Below are positions 1-15,020 of a DNA stretch of 64,000 nucleotides, piece by piece. Numbering within the stretch: position 1 is the stretch's first letter; every line of letters starts with the position of its first letter. The notes under the pieces were generated by a model. The model worked only from the letters and a program-made list of their open reading frames with translations. It had not been told where the DNA came from and searched no databases. This DNA is from an uncultured Oxalicibacterium sp. Its GTDB lineage: Bacteria > Pseudomonadota > Gammaproteobacteria > Burkholderiales > Burkholderiaceae_D. The DNA is taken from assembly GCF_913776015.1 (NCBI RefSeq), contig NZ_CAJYMD010000067.1:66274-130273 (forward strand). Direction: 5' to 3'. The translations under genes were made by a program, and so were the position numbers.

Positions 1-914
1 ATCGGAACCTCGCCGCGCAGCGCGGCTTCGATCCATTTTGCGGTTGTAGCGGCTTCACGATCGGCGGGTAGCGGCGGCATGTCATCGACCGGCTCCTGCT
101 TTTGCACCAGTACCGTGCATTCCCCATCGTGAATCCAGGTAATTTGCTGTGCTCGCTTGGCATTTGCCACGGTTTCACCCTCGGTGCCACGCATCAGGAA
201 CACATCGCCGCGACCTGCAGGCGCGACCGTCGAGAAAAACTCGGTCAGCGTCGTCAGGTATTCGGGGTGCGTGTAAGAGGTCAGACGCAATGCCGGTGTG
301 GCAAACGGCTGCATGATCTTCACCAGCGTATGCGTCGAATTGCGCAAACCCAGCACACGCCGCAACGCCAGCAAACGAAACATCCGTGGTGCCAGCTTTT
401 CGATAGGCATGAACACCGGCGCATTACGTGCGAACTGTTCTGCCACCTGCTTGGCATCAAGGCTCGGTGTGTAACCGAGTTGGCTGAAAATTTCCGCACT
501 TGTCACTCGCCCCGGATCGGTCGTCACGCCGTGAATGAACACGGGTGCACCTGCCCGTCCCAGCAGCAAGGCCAGCAAGGGCAACAGATTCGGCAAGGCG
601 CGTGCACCGTTGTAGCTCGGAATCACGATCGGCGCGTAATCACCAGCCGGTGCATCAAGCGCCGGGAACGAAGCTTCGGCGGCTTCGATGAAGCCAGCTA
701 ATTCCTCAGCCGATTCGCCCTTGATACGCATGGACAGCAGGATCGCACCCATCTCCAGATCGGAGACGCGGCCATCCAGCATGGCACTGTAGAGAAGACA
801 CGCATCGTCACGCGACAGGCTGCGCGCGCCTTTGACGCCACGCCCGATTTCCTTGATGAAACGGGCGGCAGCGAATGGTTCGTTAGGTGTGATGTTGGAT
901 GTGATATTTGACAT
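1..914 (-). CDS. ybiB: YbiB/TrpD2-family protein (anthranilate phosphoribosyltransferase-like, DNA-binding); runs off the left edge
   Basis: Absent from the ORF track because it is incomplete. Hand translation from ATG at 914 gives MSNITSNITPNEPFAAARFIKEIGRGVKGARSL...MLDGRVSDLEMGAILLSMRIKGES...IPSYNGAR...MRGTEGE, the YbiB signature motifs. Confidence 0.85.
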   Translation of the reverse strand, partial: MSNITSNITPNEPFAAARFIKEIGRGVKGARSLSRDDACLLYSAMLDGRVSDLEMGAILLSMRIKGESAEELAGFIEAAEASFPALDAPAGDYAPIVIPSYNGARALPNLLPLLALLLGRAGAPVFIHGVTTDPGRVTSAEIFSQLGYTPSLDAKQVAEQFARNAPVFMPIEKLAPRMFRLLALRRVLGLRNSTHTLVKIMQPFATPALRLTSYTHPEYLTTLTEFFSTVAPAGRGDVFLMRGTEGETVANAKRAQQITWIHDGECTVLVQKQEPVDDMPPLPADREAATTAKWIEAALRGEVP

Positions 915-1023
915 GCGTGGGAGGATACACCGAAGACAAAACGAAGGCGTGCCGACAAGGGGTTATGAATAGCGCAACGTAACGTGCCGCCACGGCATGG
1001 CATATGCCGCTTTCAGATTCCGT

Positions 1024-1058
1024 GCATCGCCATCTATCACCGGGTTTGATGGCGATGC
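1024..1058. other. Intercistronic hairpin between nasA and ybiB (11-bp stem, no U-tract)
   Basis: gcatcgccatc ... gatggcgatgc perfect inverted repeat just after the nasA stop. Confidence 0.6.
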
Positions 1059-6783: not shown

Positions 6784-6799
6784 AGCAAAACAGATGCCA
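6784..6799 (-). promoter_or_regulatory. sigma54 -24/-12 promoter for nirBD-nasA-ybiB
   Basis: Minus strand reads TGGCATCTGTTTTGCT (GG-N10-GC), about 40 bp before the nirB ATG. Confidence 0.8.
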
Positions 6800-6879
6800 G
6801 TTTTATTCTGCCGTTTTTCATGGCCTGCTATTAAATATGCGCATGAAATGCACAATTTGAAAAAGACATGCCATGCAAC

Positions 6880-6895
6880 GCACCTGCGAAGTGCA
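6880..6895. promoter_or_regulatory. NtrC-type enhancer site
   Basis: GCAC-CTGCGAA-GTGCA palindrome midway between two divergent sigma54 promoters; a weaker CGCACCA half-site lies at 6912-6918. Confidence 0.6.
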
Positions 6896-6967
6896 TTGAC
6901 GCAACAAAAAGCGCACCAAGAATGCCCATCAAAACAAAAACCTTGCTCTACAAGGGTTTCAAAAAAG

Positions 6968-6983
6968 TGGCATAACACTTGCA
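6968..6983 (+). promoter_or_regulatory. sigma54 -24/-12 promoter for narK and the PP2C/kinase gene
   Basis: TGGCATAACACTTGCA (GG-N10-GC), 35 bp before the narK ATG. Confidence 0.8.
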
Positions 6984-7018
6984 TCTTTTCCCGCATCACT
7001 CAACTTGTGCGGACTGTC

Positions 7019-8233
7019 ATGCAAAAAACCTCGTTCTGGAAAGCCGGCCACACGCCGACACTGCTTTCCTCATTCTTCTATTTCGATCTCAGCTTCATGG
7101 TGTGGGTGATTCTGGGGCCGCTGGCGGTACAGATTTCTGCCGATGTCGGCCTCACCCCGGCGCAGAAAGGACTCGTGGTCGCCACGCCGCTGCTTGCCGG
7201 TGCATTGCTGCGCATGGTGATGGGCGTACTGGTCGATGCCCTGCAACCGAAAAAGGCGGGCGTGATCGGCCAGATTATCGTGATGGCAGGTCTGGTCTGG
7301 GCCTGGCTCGGCGATCTGCACAGCTATCACGCACTGCTCGCCTTTGGCATCATCCTCGGTGTTGCCGGTGCCGCCTTCGCGGTGGCGCTGCCGCTGGCTT
7401 CGCGCTGGTATCCGCCAGAACATCAGGGCATGGCACTCGGCATCGCCGGTGCCGGCAATTCCGGTACCGCACTGGCGGCCCTGTTTGCGCCGACGCTGGC
7501 AATTCATTTCGGCTGGCAAAACGTGTTCGGCCTGTGCCTGATTCCTTTGTCGGTTGCCTTCGTCGTGTATCTGGTATTCGCGAAGGATGCGCCGAATGCG
7601 CCGCCCGCCAAATCGCTGGTCGCGTACCTGCAAGTGCTGAAAGACAAGGATGCCTGGTGGTTCATGTTCTTCTACAGCGTCACCTTCGGCGGCTTTTCGG
7701 GTCTGGCATCTTCGCTGACGATCTACTTCAACGGGCAATATGGTTTGTCACCCGTCACGGCCGGTTACTTCACGGCAGCCTGCGTGTTCGCCGGTTCGAT
7801 GGTGCGCCCGATCGGCGGTCGTCTGGCCGATCGCATCGGTGGTATTCGCACGCTGTCGCTAATGTATATGCTGGCCGCCATCTTCCTGCTGATCGCCAGC
7901 ATCGGCCTGCCGTCGCCGATCATGGCGGCACTCGTGTTCGTGCTGGCGATGCTGTCGCTGGGTACCGGCAACGGTGCTGTGTTCCAGTTGGTGCCACAAC
8001 GCTTCCGCAAGGAGATCGGTGTCATGACTGGCCTGGTCGGCATGGCTGGCGGTATCGGCGGTTTCTATCTGGCTTCCAGCCTCGGCTATTCCAAGCAGTT
8101 GACGGGAACCTATCAAGCTGGCCTGATTTTGTTTGCCGCGCTGGCCATCGTTGCACTGATCGGTCTCTCGACCGTCAAGAAACGCTGGCGCACCACATGG
8201 GGCAGCGCCGCCATGACTAACGCCAAGATATGA
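7019..8233 (+). CDS. narK: MFS nitrate/nitrite transporter (NarK/NasA family)
   Basis: Start trimmed to MQKTSFWKAGH. Has about 12 hydrophobic segments and the nitrate signatures FAVALPLASRWYP..QG.ALGIAGAGN and GNGAVFQLVP. Confidence 0.93.
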   Translation: MQKTSFWKAGHTPTLLSSFFYFDLSFMVWVILGPLAVQISADVGLTPAQKGLVVATPLLAGALLRMVMGVLVDALQPKKAGVIGQIIVMAGLVWAWLGDLHSYHALLAFGIILGVAGAAFAVALPLASRWYPPEHQGMALGIAGAGNSGTALAALFAPTLAIHFGWQNVFGLCLIPLSVAFVVYLVFAKDAPNAPPAKSLVAYLQVLKDKDAWWFMFFYSVTFGGFSGLASSLTIYFNGQYGLSPVTAGYFTAACVFAGSMVRPIGGRLADRIGGIRTLSLMYMLAAIFLLIASIGLPSPIMAALVFVLAMLSLGTGNGAVFQLVPQRFRKEIGVMTGLVGMAGGIGGFYLASSLGYSKQLTGTYQAGLILFAALAIVALIGLSTVKKRWRTTWGSAAMTNAKI

Positions 8234-8267: not shown

Positions 8268-9980
8268 ATGCCACTGACCCTTTCTGCCGGCCATGCCTCA
8301 CGCGCCGGACTGCGGCCAGCCAACGAAGATTTCGTCGGCATGGTGATGCCGCCCGAGCCGGATCTGTCGAGCAAGGGTTTTCTCGCCGCCGTGGCCGATG
8401 GCGTCTCGGGCAATGATGGTGGTCGGCAGGCATCCGAATACACGGTGCGCGGCCTACTGGGCGATTACTACGCCACCTCCGATACGTGGCCCGTGACACA
8501 ATCGCTGGATCGCGTGATCAAGGCCATCAATAGCTGGGTACAGCAACAGGGTTCGATCCGCCCCGAACTGGCCGGCATGGCCTCGACGCTGACGACGCTG
8601 GTGCTGCGCGGCCATTTCTATTACTTCGCGCATGTGGGTGATACGCGTCTGTACCTGCTGCGCGACGACAAGCTCACACTACTAACCACCGACCACGTGT
8701 GGGATCGTCCCGAAATGCAGCACGTGCTGACACGTGCGATCGGCCTCGATTCACGCCTCGCCATTGATCACGGCATGGGCAATCTGCAGCAGGGCGATGT
8801 GTTCCTGCTGGCTTGCGATGGCGTGTGGGATACCTTATCGCATTACGAATTGCAGGAGCACCTGCAAACGGTCAGCACAGAGCGCGATGCCGAAACCGTT
8901 GCCAACGCCCTGCTCGATCATGCACTCGAAAAAGGTTCGCGCGACAACGTGAGCGCCATCGTCATACGCGTGCAGAACCTGCCCGAGATGAACTTGCGCG
9001 ATGCTGTTTCGGAATCGCAGCGGTTGCCCATTCCGCCGCGCCTCAAGGTCGGGCAGACCATCGACAGCTATCGCATCGAAGAACAGATTCATGCGTCGGC
9101 CACTACGCTGCTCTATCGCGTGAGCGAGCTGCGCCAGACCGGCGCAGCACCGCGCATGCTGGTACTGAAAACGCTGCATCCCGACAAGGCCGACGATCCG
9201 CACGAGCGTTCCGCCTTCGCCCATGAAGAATGGCTGTCGCGGCGTGTCGTCGCGCGCTTCTTTCCGCAGGCAATCGCTGCCGAAAACAAAAGCTATCACT
9301 ACTATCTGACGACGTGGCATGAAGGCAGCACGCTGCAGCAGCATCTCGATGTGGGCGAGCATTTCACGATTCCTGATGCGTTAGCGCATGGCAGCAAACT
9401 GATCCGCGCCATCGGTGCGCTGCATCGGCGCAGCATCATTCACCGCGATATCAAACCGGCCAACATTCATCTCGGCACGGATGGCGAGTTGCGAATTCTC
9501 GATCTGGGTGTGGCGCAATCGGGGCTGGAAGCCGAAGACGAAGTGCGTGCACCGCGCGCCGGCACGCCGTCCTTCCTGGCCCCCGAACAGTTCGATGCCG
9601 CACCTGCCTCACGCGCCACGGATCTGTACGCGGTTGGCGTGACGCTGTATCTGCTGCTGACGCGCCATTTTCCCTATGGCGAGATCGAACCGTTCCAGTC
9701 GCCGCGCTTCGGCACACCGGTTGCGCCAAGCCGCTATCGTCGCGATCTGCCGATGTGGCTGGAGAACGTATTGCTCAAGGCAGTAGCGCGCGATCCTGCA
9801 GATCGCTTTGAAACGGCAGAAGAATTTCAGTTGGCACTCGAACGCGGTGCAGCGCGACCTATCGATCGTCTGCCGAAAAAGCCCTTGGCAGAGCGCGACC
9901 CAACCAGTTTGTGGCGTGCGATTGCGCTGGTATCGGTGGTGACGAATCTTTTGCTGCTTTATCTTTTGGTGGTGCGCTAA
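8268..9980 (+). CDS. Bifunctional PP2C-type phosphatase / Hanks-type Ser/Thr kinase with C-terminal membrane anchor
   Basis: PP2C motifs RPANED, VADGVSG, HVGDTR, LTTDH, CDGVWD, SRDNV. Kinase motifs VLK, HRDIKPANI, DLG, GTPSFLAPE, DLYAVG. Ends in a hydrophobic tail. Confidence 0.9.
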   Translation: MPLTLSAGHASRAGLRPANEDFVGMVMPPEPDLSSKGFLAAVADGVSGNDGGRQASEYTVRGLLGDYYATSDTWPVTQSLDRVIKAINSWVQQQGSIRPELAGMASTLTTLVLRGHFYYFAHVGDTRLYLLRDDKLTLLTTDHVWDRPEMQHVLTRAIGLDSRLAIDHGMGNLQQGDVFLLACDGVWDTLSHYELQEHLQTVSTERDAETVANALLDHALEKGSRDNVSAIVIRVQNLPEMNLRDAVSESQRLPIPPRLKVGQTIDSYRIEEQIHASATTLLYRVSELRQTGAAPRMLVLKTLHPDKADDPHERSAFAHEEWLSRRVVARFFPQAIAAENKSYHYYLTTWHEGSTLQQHLDVGEHFTIPDALAHGSKLIRAIGALHRRSIIHRDIKPANIHLGTDGELRILDLGVAQSGLEAEDEVRAPRAGTPSFLAPEQFDAAPASRATDLYAVGVTLYLLLTRHFPYGEIEPFQSPRFGTPVAPSRYRRDLPMWLENVLLKAVARDPADRFETAEEFQLALERGAARPIDRLPKKPLAERDPTSLWRAIALVSVVTNLLLLYLLVVR

Positions 9981-10003
9981 GACACTAAGACGCTGAAAAA
10001 CAA

Positions 10004-10037
10004 AACGGCCTGCAGCAAACGTGCAGGCCGTTCTTTT
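10004..10037. terminator. Likely bidirectional intrinsic terminator between convergent genes
   Basis: aacggcctgca/tgcaggccgtt stem flanked by A-rich and T-rich runs. Confidence 0.8.
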
Positions 10038-10055: not shown

Positions 10056-10808
10056 TCAGGCTACGGCCTCTTCCAGCGCCGCTTTGACCAGATCATCGAT
10101 CTCACCGGTAATACGCGACAGCACGCCAGCCACCACCGAAAATTCTTTGCCGGCTTCCCCGGCACGCGCCGCAACGATACGGGCATTGAATGCCACCATC
10201 TTGGCTTCGCGTGCAATGGTTTCAATATCCGTCATCACGCCATGCAATTGCGCGTGCATCAACCGCGCATGCTTTTTCGATTCGGCTTCATAGATCGCCG
10301 TAAGTTGATTCAGCACGGCCAGCAAGGCGGTCGTGCCATCCACCAGTTCTTCCAGCAGTTGTGGCGCATGGCGCAACTTGTCGTCGATTGCATTGAGCGC
10401 ACGCTCGGCCAGATCCATGAAGTGACGTATCTTGCGATCACCTTCCTGTGTACCGAAATACGCCTGTTCAAGTTCGCCACAGAATACGCCTGGCAATTGC
10501 CCTGAAGGCCGCATGAGCAACTGGTGCGCGTCGCGGAATAGCTTGAGTGCTTCGCGTGCCGTGCTCGTGGCATTCTCGCGCCCCTGCGCACCGAGCACCG
10601 CATACAAGACCAGCCGTTGCGAGGTAAAACGACGACGCCCCGACAGATTGATCAGCATGCCGAACACTTCACCCGACAGCGGGACGATACCGCTGTCCTG
10701 CTCGGCTTCCTGATGGATAAGCGGCGCAGTTCCGACTGCCGGCACCACGGCAGACCGATCTGCATGCTTGTCGTTTGCGGCCATGGGCAGCGTGATCGTC
10801 TGCCGCAT
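10056..10808 (-). CDS. Soluble protein with NarX/PilJ-type sensor motif and a minimal chemoreceptor signalling hairpin
   Basis: INLSGRRRFTSQR resembles the P-box/N-box. C-terminal IAREAKMVAFNARIVAARAGEAGKEFSVVA resembles the MCP tip. No transmembrane segment. Alternative start at 10784. Confidence 0.8.
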   Translation of the reverse strand: MRQTITLPMAANDKHADRSAVVPAVGTAPLIHQEAEQDSGIVPLSGEVFGMLINLSGRRRFTSQRLVLYAVLGAQGRENATSTAREALKLFRDAHQLLMRPSGQLPGVFCGELEQAYFGTQEGDRKIRHFMDLAERALNAIDDKLRHAPQLLEELVDGTTALLAVLNQLTAIYEAESKKHARLMHAQLHGVMTDIETIAREAKMVAFNARIVAARAGEAGKEFSVVAGVLSRITGEIDDLVKAALEEAVA

Positions 10809-10843: not shown

Positions 10844-11656
10844 TCAGGCAGCCTCCTTCGCCGGATGCGATTGACGGTGATACAGGAATTCCAGCACCGC
10901 CGAACGGTATTGCATGTATTGCGGATCCTGAGCCAGCGCCACGCGTTCACGCGGACGGGCCAGTTTCACTTCGCAAATCTCGCCGATGGTGGCCGATGGG
11001 CCATTGGTCAGCATGACGATGCGATCCGACAGCAGCACGGCTTCATCCACATCGTGCGTGACCATGACGACGGTGGAATTGGTCGCGGCCACGATCTTCA
11101 GCAACTCATCCTGAAGATGCGCACGCGTCAAGGCGTCGAGTGCACCGAACGGTTCGTCCATCAGCAGCACTTTCGGTTCCATCGACAGCGCACGCGCAAT
11201 ACCGACGCGCTGCTTCATGCCGCCCGAGATTTCATTCGGCCGCTTTTGCTCCGCATGCGTTAGGCCCACCATCGCCAGCGCAGCCCTGGTGCGTGCCTGC
11301 AATTGCGCTTTCGATTCGCTGCCACCGAACACACGCTCAACAGCCAGATACACGTTTTCAAAACACGTCAACCACGGCAACAGTGAATGGTTCTGGAACA
11401 CGACCGCACGCTCAGGCGACGGGCCGGCAATTTCGCGATTGCCGCACAATAGTGCGCCACCGGTTGCCGTCGTCAGGCCGGCAATCAGATTCAGCAATGT
11501 CGATTTGCCGCAACCCGAGTGACCGATCAGCGTGATGAATTCACCCTTGGCAACCGTCAGGTTGATGTCGCGCAGCGCATTGAAAACGCCCTTCTTGGTG
11601 TGGAACGACATTTCACCGTTTTGAATGTCGATGTATTTGCTGTTGGTGCTGTCCAT
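10844..11656 (-). CDS. nasD: Nitrate ABC transporter ATP-binding subunit (NasD/NrtD)
   Basis: Walker [34 protein letters not shown]; start trimmed to MDSTNSK. Confidence 0.93.
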
Positions 11657-11709
11657 GATGGTTTCCTTCTGCGTATGGATGCGGGGTCGTTGTGATGACA
11701 TCTCGCCTT

Positions 11710-11748
11710 GCATGCGGCCGGCTGGGATACGCGTTGCCGACCGCATGC
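11710..11748. other. Intercistronic hairpin between nasE and nasD (13-bp stem, no U-tract)
   Basis: Minus strand GCATGCGGTCGGC ... GCCGGCCGCATGC. Confidence 0.6.
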
Positions 11749-11779: not shown

Positions 11780-12697
11780 TTAGCTCTTCACATCTTCGTA
11801 GGTGAAGGCGCGTGCGATACCAACCAGAATCTGTTCGAGAATCAGGCCGACGACGCCGATGACGACGATGGCGATGATGATGTGCGGCACATTGAGGTTG
11901 TTCCACTCATCCCACACCCAGAAGCCGATACCGACACCGCCGGTCAGCATTTCTGCCGCCACGATCACCAGCCATGCGGTACCGATGGCAAGACGCACGC
12001 CGGTCAGCATGTACGGCAATACGGAAGGAAAAAGAATCTTGGTGATGATCTTCCACTCCGACAGATTCAGTACACGTGCCACATTCATGTAATCCTGCGG
12101 AACCCGCTGCACGCCTACAGCGGTGTTGATGATCATCGGCCAGATCGAGCAGATGAAGATCGCCCAGATCGCAGCCGGATCGGCAGCCTTGAATACCAGA
12201 AGACCAATCGGCAACCAGGCCAGGGGCGACACCGGTTTCAACAGGCTGATGATCGGATTGAACATCCCCGACAGAAAACTGAAGCGACCAATCATGAAGC
12301 CCAGCGGAATACCTACCAACGCCGCCGCGCCGAAGCCAAGGCCAACGCGCTTGAGCGAAGCGAGAATATTCCAGCCGATGCCCTGGTCATTCGGGCCGTT
12401 GCTGTAGAACGGATCGGCGAACAGGTCAAGCGCTGATTTCCACGTCACGAATGGCGAGGGAATGCCACTGTTTTTGGCAGCGATGATTTCCCACACCACG
12501 ATCAGGAAAAACACACCGAACAACGGCGGCAGAATCTTCATCATGAAGGGGCGTAGCGAAGACGGTTTCTTCGGCTTGCCGACGGCCTTGGTGTCCACCG
12601 CTGCCGCTACAGCACCGCCTTGGGTGGTGCTGTCGGCCCTGGTGCTCGATGCGTGGACGACAGGAGATAAGGTTTCTGCAACGACTGCGGTATTCAT
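11780..12697 (-). CDS. nasE: Nitrate ABC transporter permease (NasE/NrtB)
   Basis: LFADPFYSNGPNDQGIGWNILASL, LKPVSPLAWLP, VAAEML, WDEWNNL. Confidence 0.93.
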   Translation of the reverse strand: MNTAVVAETLSPVVHASSTRADSTTQGGAVAAAVDTKAVGKPKKPSSLRPFMMKILPPLFGVFFLIVVWEIIAAKNSGIPSPFVTWKSALDLFADPFYSNGPNDQGIGWNILASLKRVGLGFGAAALVGIPLGFMIGRFSFLSGMFNPIISLLKPVSPLAWLPIGLLVFKAADPAAIWAIFICSIWPMIINTAVGVQRVPQDYMNVARVLNLSEWKIITKILFPSVLPYMLTGVRLAIGTAWLVIVAAEMLTGGVGIGFWVWDEWNNLNVPHIIIAIVVIGVVGLILEQILVGIARAFTYEDVKS

Positions 12698-12706
12698 GAG
12701 GACTCC

Positions 12707-13957
12707 TTATGCCTTGATCTTGAACGATTCGGCGTATGCCTTCGGATTCTTGCCATCCCAGACCACACCATCGATGAGCTTGGACGAACGCATTTCGCTC
12801 TTCGGCAGCGGCACCTTGGCTGCGGTAGCGGCTTCCTTGTAGAGCGCGATACGGTTGATCGATTTCGCCGTGCCCAGGTAATCCGGCTCGCCCTTGGCCA
12901 GACCCCAGCGCTTGTGCTGCGTCATGAACCACATGCCATCCGACAGGTACGGGAAGTTGACCGCGCCTTCGTTGTAGAACTTCATGTAGTTCGGATCGTC
13001 CCAGGTCTTGCCGAGGCCGTTTTGATAGCGACCGAGAATGCGTTCGTTGATCACATCGACCGAGGTATTCACATAAGCCTTGGCCGCGATCGTGTCAGCC
13101 ATCTTGGCCTTGTTCGACAGCGAGGAATCGATCCAGCGACCGGCTTCGAGAATGGCGGCCGTCACGGCGCGTGCGGTGTTGGGATTCTTGGCAACCCAGT
13201 CCGACGTCGTACCCAGCACTTTTTCAGGATGATCTTTCCAGATGTCTTGCGTGGTCGCCGCCGTGATGCCGATGCCATCGACGATGGCGCGGTGATTCCA
13301 CGGTTCGCCAACGCAGAAACCATCCATGTTGCCGACACGCATATTGGCAACCATCTGCGGTGGCGGCACGGTGATGACCTTGGCATCCTTCATCGGATTG
13401 ATGCCATAGGTTGCCAGCCAGTAGTACAGCCACATGGCGTGTGTGCCGGTCGGGAAGGTTTGCGCAAACGTGTACTCGCGCTTTTCCATCTGCATCAGCT
13501 TCGCGAGCGCCGGGCCGTTGATCGCACCGGCATCGGCGAGCTTTTTCGAGAGCGTGATGGCCTGACCATTGTTGTTTAGGTTCATCAGCACGGCCATGTC
13601 TTTCTTGGCACCGCCTATGCCTTCATGCACGCCATACACGAGGCCGTACAGCACATGCGCTGCATCGAGTTCACCATTGACCAGCTTGTCGCGCACACCA
13701 GCCCACGAGGATTCCTTGGTCGGCACGATCTTGACGCCGTACTTCTTGTCGAAGCCCATGACTGATGCCATGACAACCGACGCGCAATCGGTCAGCGGAA
13801 TGAAACCGATCTTGACCTCTTCCTTCTCTGGTTTGTCCGATCCGGCAGCCCAGACACCGCCGGTTGCCAAACCGCCAAATGCGCCCACTGCGGCGGCGGT
13901 ACCTGCCTTGATAATGGTGCGTCGTGTCATGTTGGTTTTCCCGTCGTGCGTTGTCAT
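12707..13957 (-). CDS. nasF: Nitrate ABC transporter substrate-binding protein (NasF/NrtA, CmpA family) with twin-arginine signal
   Basis: Start trimmed to MTTHDGK. Contains TRRTIIK (TAT), GFIPLTDCA, TFPTGTH and GFCVGEPW. Confidence 0.92.
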   Translation of the reverse strand: MTTHDGKTNMTRRTIIKAGTAAAVGAFGGLATGGVWAAGSDKPEKEEVKIGFIPLTDCASVVMASVMGFDKKYGVKIVPTKESSWAGVRDKLVNGELDAAHVLYGLVYGVHEGIGGAKKDMAVLMNLNNNGQAITLSKKLADAGAINGPALAKLMQMEKREYTFAQTFPTGTHAMWLYYWLATYGINPMKDAKVITVPPPQMVANMRVGNMDGFCVGEPWNHRAIVDGIGITAATTQDIWKDHPEKVLGTTSDWVAKNPNTARAVTAAILEAGRWIDSSLSNKAKMADTIAAKAYVNTSVDVINERILGRYQNGLGKTWDDPNYMKFYNEGAVNFPYLSDGMWFMTQHKRWGLAKGEPDYLGTAKSINRIALYKEAATAAKVPLPKSEMRSSKLIDGVVWDGKNPKAYAESFKIKA

Positions 13958-13984
13958 GTCGTCCTCGATAGCGAAGTGGAAAAG

Positions 13985-14033
13985 AAAAAACGTCCGGCGT
14001 CGCAAAAGCACATGCTTCTGCAACACCGGACGT
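13985..14033 (-). terminator. Leader (attenuator) terminator ahead of nasF
   Basis: Minus strand ACGTCCGGTGTTGCAGAAGC-ATGT-GCTTTTGCGACGCCGGACGT followed by TTTTT, between the promoter and the nasF start. Confidence 0.85.
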
Positions 14034-14045
14034 CGTTGTCCTGAG

Positions 14046-14101
14046 ATGACAACCGCCATTGGTCATCATCGTGGTGTATTTTTAGTACCGCCGTTGGTAC
14101 T
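14046..14101 (-). promoter_or_regulatory. Tandem ANTAR-binding RNA hairpins (NasT antitermination element)
   Basis: AGTACC-AACGGC-GGTACT and ATGACC-AATGGC-GG..TCAT. Both are hexaloops with A1/G4 closed by C-G, directly 5' of the terminator. Confidence 0.85.
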
Positions 14102-14112
14102 GAATTGAAACT

Positions 14113-14128
14113 AGCAATTCATATGCCA
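14113..14128 (-). promoter_or_regulatory. sigma54 -24/-12 promoter for nasFED and the mini-receptor gene
   Basis: Minus strand TGGCATATGAATTGCT (GG-N10-GC). Confidence 0.85.
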
Positions 14129-14369: not shown

Positions 14370-15020
14370 TCAACCAAGCAGATCGGCAATATCGATCAGG
14401 CGTTGCGCCAGTTCCGACAGCTTGACGTTCTTGTCCATCGCCATGCGGCGCAACTTGCTGTAAGCCTCGTCTTCGGAAATCTTGTGCCGCTCCATCAGCA
14501 AACCCTTGGCGCGTTCGATCGTCTTGCGTTCGGCCAGCTTGAGCTTGGTGTCGGACAGTTCATTGCGCAGTTTCTGGTCGGCGTTGAAACGCGCCAGCGC
14601 CACGTCCAGCACCGGCTTGACGCGCTCAGCCTGCAAACCGGCGACGATGTAGGCGGACACACCGGCCGCCATTGCCGCTTCCATGCTGGATGGCGCGTGG
14701 TCTTCGGTAAACAGCACGATCGGGCGTGGCGCTTCGCGCGTGGCCATCACCACGTGTTCCAGCACATCGCGCGCATCCGATTCAGCATCGATGATGATCA
14801 TGTCGGGCTGCAATTGCATCACGCGCTCGGGCAAATGCATATCGGCCGGGAACACGGCGACGATGTTATAGCCGGCTTCCAGCAGACCGATGCGCAAGGC
14901 GCGTGCGCGCTCATCCTGCTCCAGCGCCAGATCATCTTCGAGATCGGCTTCAGGCGAGAGCAAGGTATTGACGACGACGATGCGCAGGGAGCGCATATCG
15001 ACTTTGTTATGTGAGGTCAT
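14370..15020 (-). CDS. nasT: ANTAR-domain antiterminator with receiver-like domain (NasT)
   Basis: [19 protein letters not shown]...RPIVLFT...GVSAYIV, and the ANTAR domain [13 protein letters not shown]...SEDEAY..LRRMAM. Confidence 0.9.

What the first reader, a model, noticed from the sequence alone, without database searches (positions are those of the whole stretch)
10056..10808. Soluble 'mini-chemoreceptor': nitrate-sensor motif fused directly to an MCP signalling tip, inside the nasFED operon
Seen: a 250-aa protein with no TM helix or signal peptide. It has INLSGRRRFTSQR, then a helical region, then only the hairpin tip of an MCP (IAREAKMVAFNARIVAARAGEAGKEFSVVA), with no HAMP or methylation helices. 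Established: the motif parallels the NarX/NarQ P-box and the McpN PilJ-domain N-box, whose Arg binds nitrate, and the MCP tip is the CheA/CheW and trimer contact region. Inference: a cytoplasmic nitrate/nitrite sensor that plugs into chemoreceptor arrays, or signals to a non-chemotaxis partner. It is the last gene of a sigma54/ANTAR-controlled operon, linking nitrate uptake to behaviour. The tip deviates from consensus (IEAAR to IVAAR, RGF to KEF), so it may modulate or inhibit arrays rather than activate them.
Basis: partly seen in the sequence, partly recalled or inferred. Interest (0 to 1): 0.8.

Follow-up and report, generated by a model that had tools for sequence, protein, structure and literature searches.

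The report
Soluble tip-only nitrate sensor protein
The last gene of this bacterium's nitrate-uptake operon encodes a small cytoplasmic protein that joins a nitrate-receptor-type sensing bundle directly to only the hairpin tip of a chemotaxis receptor; it belongs to a conserved, unstudied family that probably links the cell's internal nitrate level to its swimming-control machinery.

Summary
Window 10056-10808 (minus strand) encodes a 250-aa protein with no membrane segment. Residues 46-182 form a McpN/PilJ-type four-helix bundle carrying the nitrate G-x-x-R motif. Its last helix runs without a break into a 33+33-residue MCP hairpin tip. There is no HAMP domain and there are no methylation helices.

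It is not a fragment. About 900 homologues, roughly 100 clusters at 50% identity, share the same ~210-250-aa layout, and most carry the exact McpN N-box.

In Betaproteobacteria the gene sits in nitrate-assimilation clusters in at least five different gene orders. Here it ends a nrtA-nrtB-nrtD operon that has a sigma54-like promoter, two ANTAR-type hexaloop hairpins and a leader terminator.

The core CheW/CheA-P5 docking residues of the tip are kept across the family, while peripheral contact positions changed in a family-specific way. All 44 genomes checked that carry the gene also have CheW. In one family, none of 41 nitrate-assimilating genomes without CheW carries it.

The idea that it replaces NasS as NasT's sensor is weakened. 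It coexists with NasS and with NasR, and close relatives have the same nasT-nrtABD operon without it.

Most likely it is a cytoplasmic nitrate/nitrite sensor that acts through chemoreceptor arrays. Neither the ligand nor the partner has been tested.

The parts
10056..10808 (-). CDS of the tip-only soluble receptor (P0001), 250 aa including the stop codon; an alternative start is M9 at 10784
   Evidence: ORF and translation. Family of about 900 homologues of 205-260 aa.
10680..10808 (-). Residues 1-43: variable, disordered N-terminal tail, with no signal peptide and no membrane segment
   Evidence: pLDDT below 50. Family conservation starts at about residue 43. Hydropathy scan.
10263..10673 (-). 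Residues 46-182: PilJ/McpN-type four-helix-bundle sensor domain
   Evidence: AF2 helices. Foldseek target TM-scores of 0.73-0.79 to 4HB sensor domains. Family profile against 6GCV at E 4e-8.
10614..10652 (-). N-box/P-box-like motif INLSGRRRFTSQR (residues 53-65). G57-x-x-R60 corresponds to the nitrate-binding G58/R61 of McpN; the R60 codon is at 10629-10631.
   Evidence: Sequence. N-box consensus and the role of R61 from PMC6381276. G-x-x-R motif from PMC8199190. N54, R60 and Q64 are invariant in the family. Alignment to 6GCV.
10062..10262 (-). Residues 183-249: MCP hairpin tip, made of N-helix 183-215, a turn at G217-E222 (10143-10160) and C-helix 217-249. This corresponds to Tsr residues about 356-422.
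   Evidence: Pfam MCPsignal. PDB matches. BLASTP to Tsr. AF2 model. Conservation table.
10002..10034 (-). Intrinsic terminator ending the operon
   Evidence: 13-bp stem followed by a T-run.
10844..11746 (-). nrtD/nasD, nitrate ABC transporter ATPase
   Evidence: TIGR01184, 331.6 bits.
11780..12697 (-). nrtB/nasE, nitrate ABC transporter permease
   Evidence: TIGR01183, 248 bits.
12707..13957 (-). nrtA/nasF, periplasmic nitrate-binding protein with a twin-arginine signal. The start is most likely the ATG at 13957, not 14059.
   Evidence: NMT1_2, 345 bits. The longer ORF would read through the leader terminator.
13980..14033 (-). Leader terminator (about a 20-21-bp stem plus U-run) upstream of nrtA
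14045..14100 (-). Two hairpins with hexaloops AACGGC and AAUGGC, which is the ANTAR-target type
   Evidence: Sequence. Fold MFE -60.2 kcal/mol, z-score -7.96. No Rfam family matched.
14113..14128 (-). Sigma54-like promoter TGGCAT-N5-TTGCT
   Evidence: Read from the sequence. The exact consensus TGGCAC-N5-TTGC is absent from the window.
14370..15020 (-). nasT, a receiver-like plus ANTAR antiterminator. It is the only ANTAR gene in the genome, and no nasS lies next to it.
   Evidence: Pfam ANTAR, 78 bits. Single ANTAR hit in G000. The two other strongest NrtA-like genes examined sit in ABC-transporter operons.

Best explanation
P0001 is a cytoplasmic, probably homodimeric, minimal chemoreceptor-like sensor.

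How it is built and expressed:
- A McpN-type four-helix bundle most likely binds nitrate, or nitrite, at the dimer interface through R60 of the G-x-x-R motif.
- The fourth bundle helix continues as one helix into a short MCP hairpin (about 33+33 residues). Ligand-induced shifts would therefore reach the tip directly, with no membrane segment, HAMP domain, glycine hinge or methylation region.
- The protein is made together with the NrtABD nitrate importer. The operon appears to depend on nitrogen limitation (sigma54-type promoter) and on NasT antitermination.

Proposed output (inferred): the tip docks on CheW/CheA-P5, or mixes into trimers with full-length receptors, so that the internal nitrate pool biases motility. 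The sign, activation or damping, is open. Because there are no adaptation sites, any adaptation would have to come from neighbouring receptors in the array.

What is shown and what is inferred:
- Shown: architecture, family conservation, operon membership, leader elements and phyletic pattern.
- Inferred: the ligand (about 0.65) and array docking (about 0.45).
For: Architecture:
- Pfam MCPsignal is above its cut-off.
- The family profile hits McpN-LBD 6GCV at E 4e-8 and MCP tips at E about 1e-15.
- AF2 shows a continuous helix 148-215 followed by a hairpin.
- The best structural matches are 4HB sensor domains, with target TM-scores of 0.73-0.79.

Ligand:
- Most family members match the McpN N-box consensus exactly (INLAGRQRMLSQ).
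- N54, R60 and Q64 are invariant.
- G-x-x-R is the nitrate-binding motif shared by NarX/NarQ and McpN (PMC8199190).

Nitrate link: the gene lies inside nas clusters in at least five different gene orders.
- After nrtD in the window, Herbaspirillum and Massilia.
- After nasS in Janthinobacterium.
- After cobA in Comamonadaceae.
- Next to narK in Paraburkholderia.
- Between a porin gene and cobA in Methylobacillus.

Co-expression: the leader has a sigma54-like promoter, two hexaloop hairpins and a terminator. The gap between nrtD and the gene is 35-59 nt, with a terminator only after the gene.

Docking surface: in 71 representatives that have diverged to about 27% identity, the Tsr-equivalent positions are as follows.
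- N381 is N in 100%.
- V384 is V or I in 97%.
- L380 is hydrophobic in 90%.
- I377 is hydrophobic in 87%.
- R388 is R in 85%.
- F396 is F in 100%.
- These are the contacts present in both core-complex models 6S1K and 8C5V (PMC13098124).
- Tsr mutants at E385 still assemble core complexes (PMC6681711).

Phyletic pattern:
- CheW is present in all 44 distinct genomes that carry the gene.
- In a 201-genome sample of one family, 20 carry the gene and all 20 have CheW.
- Of the 63 genomes without CheW, 41 have NasA and none has the gene.
- Naive one-sided Fisher P is 3e-4, or about 4e-3 or lower when restricted to NasA-bearing genomes.

Like ordinary receptor genes, distant family members are scattered and monocistronic, with no adjacent partner.
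Against: - Nothing shows physical binding to CheW, CheA or other receptors.
- Several positions that are near-invariant in canonical receptors are changed family-wide: F373 to R/K, N376 to R/K, A383 to Q/R/K, E385 to I/A/V, G395 to E (74%), and the E402-V-R404 motif is lost. That fits an altered partner as well as a retained one.
- The hairpin is about 10 heptads in total, far shorter than any described receptor class (smallest 24H, from my own knowledge). The eight-helix sensor dimer would sit only about 50 A above the baseplate, which may clash inside a packed array.
- The window's subgroup departs from the N-box at 4 of the 10 specified positions (A to S, Q to R, M to F, L to T), so its ligand could differ.
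- The phyletic association is not corrected for relatedness. It could simply reflect motile, sensor-rich lifestyles.
- Tight embedding in nas operons would equally suit a regulator of assimilation itself.
Confidence: 0.45

Rival explanations
1. The tip has been re-used as a protein-binding module for a partner outside chemotaxis that acts within nitrate assimilation. In this reading the protein is a cytoplasmic nitrate/nitrite sensor that tunes NasT/NasS, the PP2C-Ser/Thr kinase, the transporter or the reductases.
For: - The gene is embedded in nas operons in several gene orders. In Janthinobacterium it directly follows nasT-nasS.
- In the window genome NasT has no NasS next to it, and the two other strongest NrtA-like genes examined are transporter subunits.
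- Family-specific changes at peripheral CheW/P5 contact positions add basic residues.
- There is a precedent for MCP-domain proteins acting outside chemotaxis: BdlA (PMC10746223).
Against: - No single candidate partner co-occurs with the gene throughout. The PP2C-kinase gene lies close to it in only some loci.
- The gene coexists with self-sufficient NasR in Methylobacillus, G134, G280, Hydrogenophaga and Hylemonella, and with NasS-NasT in Paraburkholderia, Stappia, Roseibium and Janthinobacterium.
- Same-family relatives G009, G069 and G325 have nasT-nrtA-nrtB-nrtD without the gene.
- Distant members lie outside nas clusters.
- None of the 41 NasA-bearing genomes without CheW carries it.
Confidence: 0.25
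2. It is an array damper or decoy. In this reading the short, non-adapting tip competes with full-length receptors for CheW/CheA, or poisons mixed trimers. That would lower kinase activity or gradient sensitivity while the cell is importing nitrate, so the cell tends to stay where nitrate is.
For: - The same docking-surface and phyletic evidence as for the best explanation applies.
- There are no methylation helices.
- In Tsr, E385V, the residue found here, gives OFF-shifted output, while E385I/L/M give output that ligand cannot control without adaptation (PMC6681711).
- Short soluble Tsr tip fragments were reported to inhibit CheA signalling (Ames and Parkinson 1994). This is from my own knowledge; the paper is not held.
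Against: - A pure decoy would not need a conserved ligand-binding bundle with an invariant Arg.
- There are no expression-level data.
Confidence: 0.15
3. In the window's subgroup (G-R-R-R-F-T-S-Q) the ligand is not nitrate but another small anion, for example nitrite. This affects only the input, so it is compatible with any of the proposed outputs.
For: - Four of the ten specified N-box positions differ.
- The changes are shared by the whole Oxalobacteraceae-type clade.
- McpN is specific for nitrate, whereas NarX and NarQ also sense nitrite (PMC6381276; PMC8199190).
Against: - G-x-x-R and the flanking N, S and Q residues are retained.
- The gene sits in a nitrate-importer operon.
Confidence: 0.2
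4. It is a decayed fragment of a McpN-type receptor gene with no function.
For: It covers only a third of the MCPsignal profile.
Against: - About 900 homologues and roughly 100 clusters at 50% identity all have the same length and layout.
- Conservation is strong and concentrated on the N-box and the tip.
- AF2 folds it with confidence.
- It is placed tightly within operons, abutting nrtD in Massilia.
Confidence: 0.02

Closest known systems
McpN (PA2788) nitrate chemoreceptor of Pseudomonas aeruginosa, PilJ-type LBD, PDB 6GCV
   Same: - It has the same sensor fold and the N-box. The family profile matches 6GCV at E 4e-8, and canonical members read INLAGRQRMLSQ against INVAGAQRMLSQ in McpN.
- Both also have an MCP tip.
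   Different: - McpN is a transmembrane receptor with a periplasmic LBD, a HAMP domain and a full methylatable signalling domain. It is repressed by nitrate (PMC6381276).
- This protein is cytoplasmic, has only the tip, and sits in a nitrate-inducible operon.
- The window copy alters four N-box positions.
NarX/NarQ nitrate/nitrite sensor kinases (P-box)
   Same: Both have a four-helix-bundle sensor with a G-x-x-R nitrate site at the dimer interface (PMC8199190).
   Different: NarX and NarQ have a periplasmic sensor, a transmembrane segment with HAMP, and a histidine-kinase output. None of these is present here.
Tm14 (TM0014), soluble Thermotoga maritima receptor, PDB 3G67/3UR1/4JPB
   Same: - It is the best PDB sequence match (E 1e-8 for the single sequence, 2e-15 for the profile).
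- It is a small soluble receptor whose tip binds CheW and CheA-P5.
   Different: Tm14 is a long hairpin with no sensor domain. This protein has a sensor domain and a hairpin of only about 33+33 residues.
Soluble cytoplasmic fragments of Tsr (laboratory constructs)
   Same: Tip-containing fragments without methylation segments can still activate or inhibit CheA (Ames and Parkinson 1994, 1996; from my own knowledge, papers not held).
   Different: Those fragments are artificial and have no ligand input. This is a natural, conserved family with a sensor fused on.
BdlA of P. aeruginosa
   Same: It is a soluble sensor with an MCP signalling domain that is used outside flagellar chemotaxis (PMC10746223, PMC5126104).
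   Different: BdlA has PAS sensor domains and a long signalling domain, and it has no link to nitrate assimilation.
NasS (partner of NasT) and NasR (NIT-ANTAR)
   Same: They are cytoplasmic nitrate/nitrite sensors encoded in nas clusters (PMC3795266).
   Different: - The folds are unrelated: NasS is NrtA-like and NasR uses a NIT domain.
- This family coexists with both, so it is not simply a substitute for either.

Membership tests
Methyl-accepting chemotaxis proteins (MCP superfamily) | Conserved hairpin-tip sequence of the signalling domain | tested here: met
   Pfam MCPsignal 36.6 bits, above the 34.6 cut-off. It shares 47% identity with Tsr residues 364-401. The family profile hits MCP tips at about E 1e-15.
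Methyl-accepting chemotaxis proteins (MCP superfamily) | Methylation (adaptation) helices with CheR/CheB sites, a flexible bundle and a glycine hinge | tested here: not met
   Only profile positions 18-75 of 172 are present. The hairpin helices are about 33 residues each and the protein ends at residue 250.
Methyl-accepting chemotaxis proteins (MCP superfamily) | Binding to CheW/CheA and formation of trimers of dimers | not testable with these tools
   Only indirect evidence exists: core contact residues are conserved, and CheW is present in all 44 genomes that carry the gene.
Methyl-accepting chemotaxis proteins (MCP superfamily) | Near-invariant tip residues QTN (374-376), E385, G395 and E402-V-R404 | tested here: not met
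   The window protein has E-A-K, V, E and V-L-S at these positions. The changes are family-wide.
PilJ/McpN-type nitrate-binding four-helix-bundle domain | Four-helix-bundle fold homologous to the McpN LBD | tested here: met
   AF2 helices. Foldseek target TM-scores of 0.73-0.79 to 4HB sensors. Profile against 6GCV at E 4e-8 over chain residues 18-137. Pfam PilJ for this single sequence is below its cut-off (23.1 against 26.6 bits).
PilJ/McpN-type nitrate-binding four-helix-bundle domain | N-box [IVL]-[ND]-x-A-G-x-Q-R-M-L-[ST]-Q (PMC6381276) | tested here: inconclusive
   Most family members match the consensus exactly. The window protein matches 6 of the 10 specified positions and keeps G-x-x-R.
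PilJ/McpN-type nitrate-binding four-helix-bundle domain | Binds nitrate through the conserved Arg | not testable with these tools
   R60 is invariant, but no binding data exist.
PilJ/McpN-type nitrate-binding four-helix-bundle domain | Periplasmic location between two transmembrane helices | tested here: not met
   Neither P0001 nor the family representatives have a signal peptide or membrane segment.
NasS-type partner of NasT | NrtA-like periplasmic-binding-protein fold | tested here: not met
   There is no NMT1_2 match, and the fold is all-helical.
NasS-type partner of NasT | Present wherever NasT lacks another sensor, and mutually exclusive with NasS/NasR | tested here: not met
   It coexists with NasS and with NasR. 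It is absent from relatives that have the same orphan nasT-nrtABD operon.
NasR / NIT-domain sensors | NIT domain (PF08376) | tested here: not met
   P0001 has no NIT hit at E up to 1. NIT was readily detected in the neighbouring NasR of Methylobacillus.

The most novel reading that the evidence does not exclude
This would be a natural minimal chemoreceptor: a cytoplasmic nitrate-binding four-helix bundle wired by one continuous helix to a receptor tip of about 10 heptads. It would plug into CheA/CheW arrays or mixed receptor trimers. Flux through the nitrate importer, meaning the internal nitrate pool rather than external nitrate, would then steer motility without an adaptation module of its own.
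Probability: 0.4. Interest if true: 0.8.

Novelty: new variant of a known kind. Interest (0 to 1): 0.62.

Why it matters
- If the tip docks on arrays, this family is the shortest natural input-to-tip signalling unit known, about 200 structured residues with no membrane segment. That would make it an attractive system for structural work on how a ligand-induced helix shift changes tip conformation and kinase control.
- It would also be a direct molecular link between nitrate assimilation and behaviour in soil and plant-associated Betaproteobacteria such as Herbaspirillum, Massilia, Paraburkholderia, Ralstonia and Comamonadaceae. That would be a case of taxis that depends on transport or metabolism rather than on an external signal.
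- If instead the tip binds another partner, it would show re-use of the most conserved chemoreceptor element for metabolic regulation.
- Either way, databases currently label these proteins as ordinary methyl-accepting chemotaxis proteins, although they cannot be methyl-accepting.

Tried and rejected
- **NasS replacement as the general function.** I tested this and rejected it: the gene coexists with NasS and NasR, and relatives have the same operon without it.
- **Gene fragment or pseudogene.** Rejected on family conservation.
- **Informative domain fusions (Rosetta-stone search).** Longer homologues have only N-terminal extensions with no added domain.
- **Foldseek against the PDB.** E-values were weak (at or above 0.17), as is usual for helical bundles. 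Only the TM-scores to 4HB sensors are informative, and 6GCV was not in the top 50. The profile-sequence search recovered it instead.
- **Rfam search of the operon and leader.** No family matched. The ANTAR-type hairpins were read from the sequence and the fold.
- **Exact sigma54 consensus.** There is no exact match. A one-mismatch site was found by eye.
- **First locus scan.** The scan with the 58-sequence alignment failed because it had no conserved stretch. It worked with a 15-sequence alignment.
- **Order-wide genome search.** It showed the family is rare, with 5 of 401 genomes carrying it.
- **Literature searches.** No description of this family turned up. Ames and Parkinson 1994 is not held.
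- **Assigning the tip to one chemosensory class.** A comparison by eye with the genome's own receptors did not discriminate between classes.
Full report
**What is there**

The finding's coordinates hold an ORF on the minus strand, 10808 down to 10056, of 250 aa. It follows four genes on the same strand:
- nasT (14370-15020; ANTAR, 78 bits);
- nrtA (NMT1_2, 345 bits, with a twin-arginine signal);
- nrtB (TIGR01183);
- nrtD (TIGR01184).

A hairpin plus T-run terminator at 10034-10002 closes the unit. The window also holds the rest of a nitrate-assimilation cluster on either side:
- nirB, nirD and nasA on the minus strand (6999-1068);
- a NarK-type MFS transporter (6794-8233, plus strand);
- a PP2C-Ser/Thr-kinase fusion (8268-9980, plus strand).

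**Domain structure**

- Pfam MCPsignal matches above its gathering score (36.6 against 34.6 bits), but only over profile positions 18-75 of 172.
- Pfam PilJ is just below its cut-off for this sequence (23.1 against 26.6 bits).
- A profile of 58 diverse family members hits the nitrate-binding domain of McpN (6GCV) at E 4e-8 over almost its full length, the PilJ receptor LBD at 1e-5, and receptor tips (Tm14, Tsr) at 2e-15 to 3e-11.
- AlphaFold2 with a 47-sequence alignment gives pLDDT 84.5 and pTM 0.70. It shows a disordered tail (1-43) and bundle helices at 46-74, 80-99 and 123-142, with a short helix at 111-118. It then shows a single 68-residue helix 148-215, a turn, and helix 217-249.
- The upper half of the long helix completes the bundle. 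The lower half pairs with the C-terminal helix as a hairpin of about 33+33 residues.
- The best structural matches by target TM-score (0.73-0.79, rmsd 2.5-2.9 A) are four-helix-bundle sensor domains of kinases and chemoreceptors. Foldseek E-values are weak, as is usual for helical bundles.
- No HAMP domain, membrane segment or signal peptide is present in this protein or in 91 family representatives.

**The two motifs**

The McpN paper defines the N-box as [IVL]-[ND]-x-A-G-x-Q-R-M-L-[ST]-Q. R61 hydrogen-bonds nitrate at the dimer axis, and G58, A59 and M62 make contact with it (PMC6381276). NarX and NarQ share the G-x-x-R core (PMC8199190).

Most family members read INLAGRQRMLSQ, an exact N-box, aligned with INVAGAQRMLSQ of 6GCV. 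The window protein and its Oxalobacteraceae-type clade read INLSGRRRFTSQ. G57 and R60 are kept, but four specified positions differ. N54, R60 and Q64 are invariant in both family alignments.

At the tip, BLASTP aligns residue n with Tsr residue n+173. The genome's own ten flagellar-type receptors have an essentially invariant tip ([33 protein letters not shown].LAQRS), from which this protein departs at many positions.

**It is a family, not a fragment**

The protein search finds 906 homologues. The best 120 are 209-346 aa long, most of them 209-265 aa, and come from Herbaspirillum, Massilia, Janthinobacterium, Duganella, Pseudoduganella and Noviherbaspirillum. They are labelled only 'methyl-accepting chemotaxis protein' or 'PilJ N-terminal domain-containing protein'.

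The exhaustive search of 50%-identity representatives gives 677 hits. About 100 full-length clusters of 205-260 aa cover residues 44-246, down to about 27% identity. NCBIfam has no dedicated model. My literature searches found no description of the family.

The family is rare. It was found in 5 of 401 genomes sampled across the order and in 20 of 201 sampled in a Comamonadaceae-type family.

**Genomic context**

In Betaproteobacteria the gene lies in nitrate-assimilation clusters, but in different positions:
- nrtA-nrtB-nrtD-gene in the window and Herbaspirillum robiniae;
- nasT-nrtABD-gene-narK-nirBD-nasA in Massilia endophytica;
- nasT-nasS-gene-cobA in Janthinobacterium agaricidamnosum;
- nirB-nirD-nasA-(Glycos_trans_3N protein)-cobA-gene in many Comamonadaceae;
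- narK-gene beside nirB/nasA in Paraburkholderia;
- nasR-nrtABD-porin-gene-cobA-narK-kinase-nirBD in Methylobacillus.

In Ralstonia and Cupriavidus the gene is followed by a secreted double-PilJ protein with an N-box, and it is not next to nas genes. In Methylotenera it stands alone. More distant members (27-37% identity) are monocistronic. They sit near other signalling or biofilm genes: a GAF kinase, an MCP and a GGDEF protein in one case, and pgaABCD, PilZ and protoglobin in another.

**Expression signals in the window**

The 310-nt nasT-nrtA spacer contains three elements:
- TGGCAT-N5-TTGCT, which is one mismatch from the sigma54 consensus (14128-14113);
- two hairpins with hexaloops AACGGC and AAUGGC (A at loop position 1 and G at position 4, the ANTAR-target pattern, from my own knowledge);
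- a 21-bp terminator with a U-run (14033-13980).

The 131-nt stretch folds at -60.2 kcal/mol, with a z-score of -7.96. No Rfam family matched, and the exact sigma54 consensus is absent.

The long nrtA ORF from 14059 would read through this terminator, so nrtA more likely starts at 13957. Co-transcription of the gene with nrtABD is inferred from the 35-59-nt gap and the single downstream terminator.

**Testing the NasS-replacement idea**

Its premise holds. G000 has one ANTAR gene and no nasS next to it. The two other strongest NrtA-like genes examined lie in ABC-transporter operons.

Across genomes that carry the gene, however, the antiterminator is of three kinds:
- an orphan NasT before nrtABD (window, Methylotenera, Cupriavidus, Ralstonia, several Comamonadaceae);
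- a NasT-NasS pair (two Paraburkholderia, Stappia, Roseibium, Janthinobacterium);
- NasR with its own NIT sensor (Methylobacillus, G134, G280, two Hydrogenophaga, Hylemonella, Acidovorax).

Three same-family relatives (G009, G069, G325; NasT 55-75% identical) have the same nasT-nrtA-nrtB-nrtD operon without the gene. The protein is therefore not a general stand-in for NasS. A lineage-specific role with NasT cannot be excluded.

**Testing the array-docking idea**

A 2026 review lists the Tsr residues within 4 A of CheA-P5 or CheW in both core-complex models. For CheA-P5 these are Q374, I377, L380, N381, V384 and R388. For CheW they are I377, L380, N381, V384, R388 and R404. F373, L378, A383, E385 and A387 appear in one model only (PMC13098124).

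In 71 family representatives the equivalents are as follows:
- N381 is N in 100%;
- V384 is V or I in 97%;
- L380 is F, L, I or M in 90%;
- I377 is I, V, M or L in 87%;
- R388 is R in 85%;
- the F396 switch residue is F in 100%;
- V398 is V in 81%, and the turn glycines are 92-95% conserved.

N381 and F396 were used to select this set, but both are also invariant in the unfiltered alignment A3, and N381 also in A1.

Together with the N-box helix, the tip is the least variable part of the protein. Peripheral positions changed in a family-specific way:
- F373 to R/K;
- N376 to R/K;
- A383 to Q/R/K;
- E385 to I/A/V/L;
- G395 to E (74%);
- R404 to S/T;
- the E-V-R-x-L-A motif is lost.

In Tsr, E385 mutants still assemble core complexes. 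E385A/V/T are OFF-shifted, and E385I/L/M are kinase-active but cannot be controlled by ligand without adaptation (PMC6681711). So the central docking surface is kept while its rim has been remodelled. This fits retained binding to a CheW-fold partner or to other receptor tips, possibly with altered signalling, but it does not prove it.

**Phyletic pattern**

CheW is present in all 29 genome handles first checked, which are 28 distinct genomes. In a 201-genome sample of one family:
- 138 genomes have CheW;
- 20 carry the gene, and all 20 have CheW;
- of the 63 genomes without CheW, 41 have a NasA orthologue at E 1e-150 or better, and none carries the gene.

The naive one-sided Fisher P is 3e-4 over all genomes. 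Restricted to NasA-bearing genomes it is about 4e-3 or lower, depending on how many CheW-bearing genomes have NasA, which I did not count. These figures ignore relatedness and lifestyle confounding, so they are supportive only. In total, 44 distinct carrier genomes were checked and all 44 have CheW.

**Conclusion**

The architecture, the family and the operon setting are solid. The most likely reading is a cytoplasmic nitrate/nitrite sensor whose bundle drives a minimal receptor tip, with output through chemosensory arrays. My confidence is about 0.65 for the ligand and 0.45 for the whole chain.

A partner outside chemotaxis within nitrate assimilation (0.25) and a damping or decoy role (0.15) remain open. 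The protein should not be filed as a methyl-accepting protein, because it has no methylation region. It is best described as a new, uncharacterised architectural variant within the chemoreceptor superfamily.

Noticed in passing
G000:C36, locus L082:3652-4440 (-), with L082:4468-7005 (-) and L082:7243-7941 (-): The same genome has a second short protein (262 aa) with only an MCP tip (MCPsignal positions 45-89, 62.9 bits) and an unassigned N-terminal part. It lies next to an 845-aa HAMP/Hpt/HATPase_c kinase, which also has a weak PAS match, and an OmpR-type response regulator. A gene with a weak CheX match lies downstream. This may be another case of a receptor tip used outside a classical che operon.
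   Followed up: partly
window 13957-14059 (-): The longest nrtA ORF starts at 14059 and would read through the leader terminator (14033-13990). The real start is probably the ATG at 13957, just before the twin-arginine signal.
   Followed up: partly
window 8268-9980 (+): A PP2C phosphatase-Ser/Thr kinase fusion lies convergent with the gene. Homologues recur in nas clusters elsewhere: two copies in Methylobacillus L001, and also in L008 and L018. Its role in nitrate assimilation is unclear.
   Followed up: partly
L005:8725-9519 (+) (Ralstonia; also L003, L006, L008); G000:C77:32076-32969 (+): In Ralstonia and Cupriavidus the gene is followed by a secreted protein with two PilJ domains and an N-box (INKAGRQRMLSQ). 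The window genome has a similar double-PilJ protein elsewhere, next to an OmpR-type two-component system. This may be a periplasmic nitrate-binding protein of unknown role.
   Followed up: partly
L110, L111, L114 (G009, G069, G325); also L085-L087, L092, L094, L096: Many Betaproteobacteria have nasT directly followed by nrtABD, with no nasS and no NIT domain. How NasT senses nitrate in these organisms remains open.
   Followed up: partly
L120:4918-8455 (Janthinobacterium agaricidamnosum): The operon order nasT-nasS-gene-cobA places the tip-only sensor directly after the NasS-NasT pair. This is the closest physical link to the antitermination system that I saw.
   Followed up: no
L023:6163-7068 and homologues (cluster c6); window about 1-1040 (-), partial: A roughly 300-aa protein with only a Glycos_trans_3N helical-bundle domain follows nasA in Comamonadaceae and in the window. 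It is a conserved nas-cluster gene of unknown function.
   Followed up: no
L117:3418-6439 (metagenome contig): A distant family member lies near genes for an ATP_bind_1-domain protein, a roadblock (Robl_LC7) protein, a protoglobin, a PilZ protein and a response regulator, and next to pgaABCD. This suggests links to biofilm or surface behaviour in that lineage.
   Followed up: no
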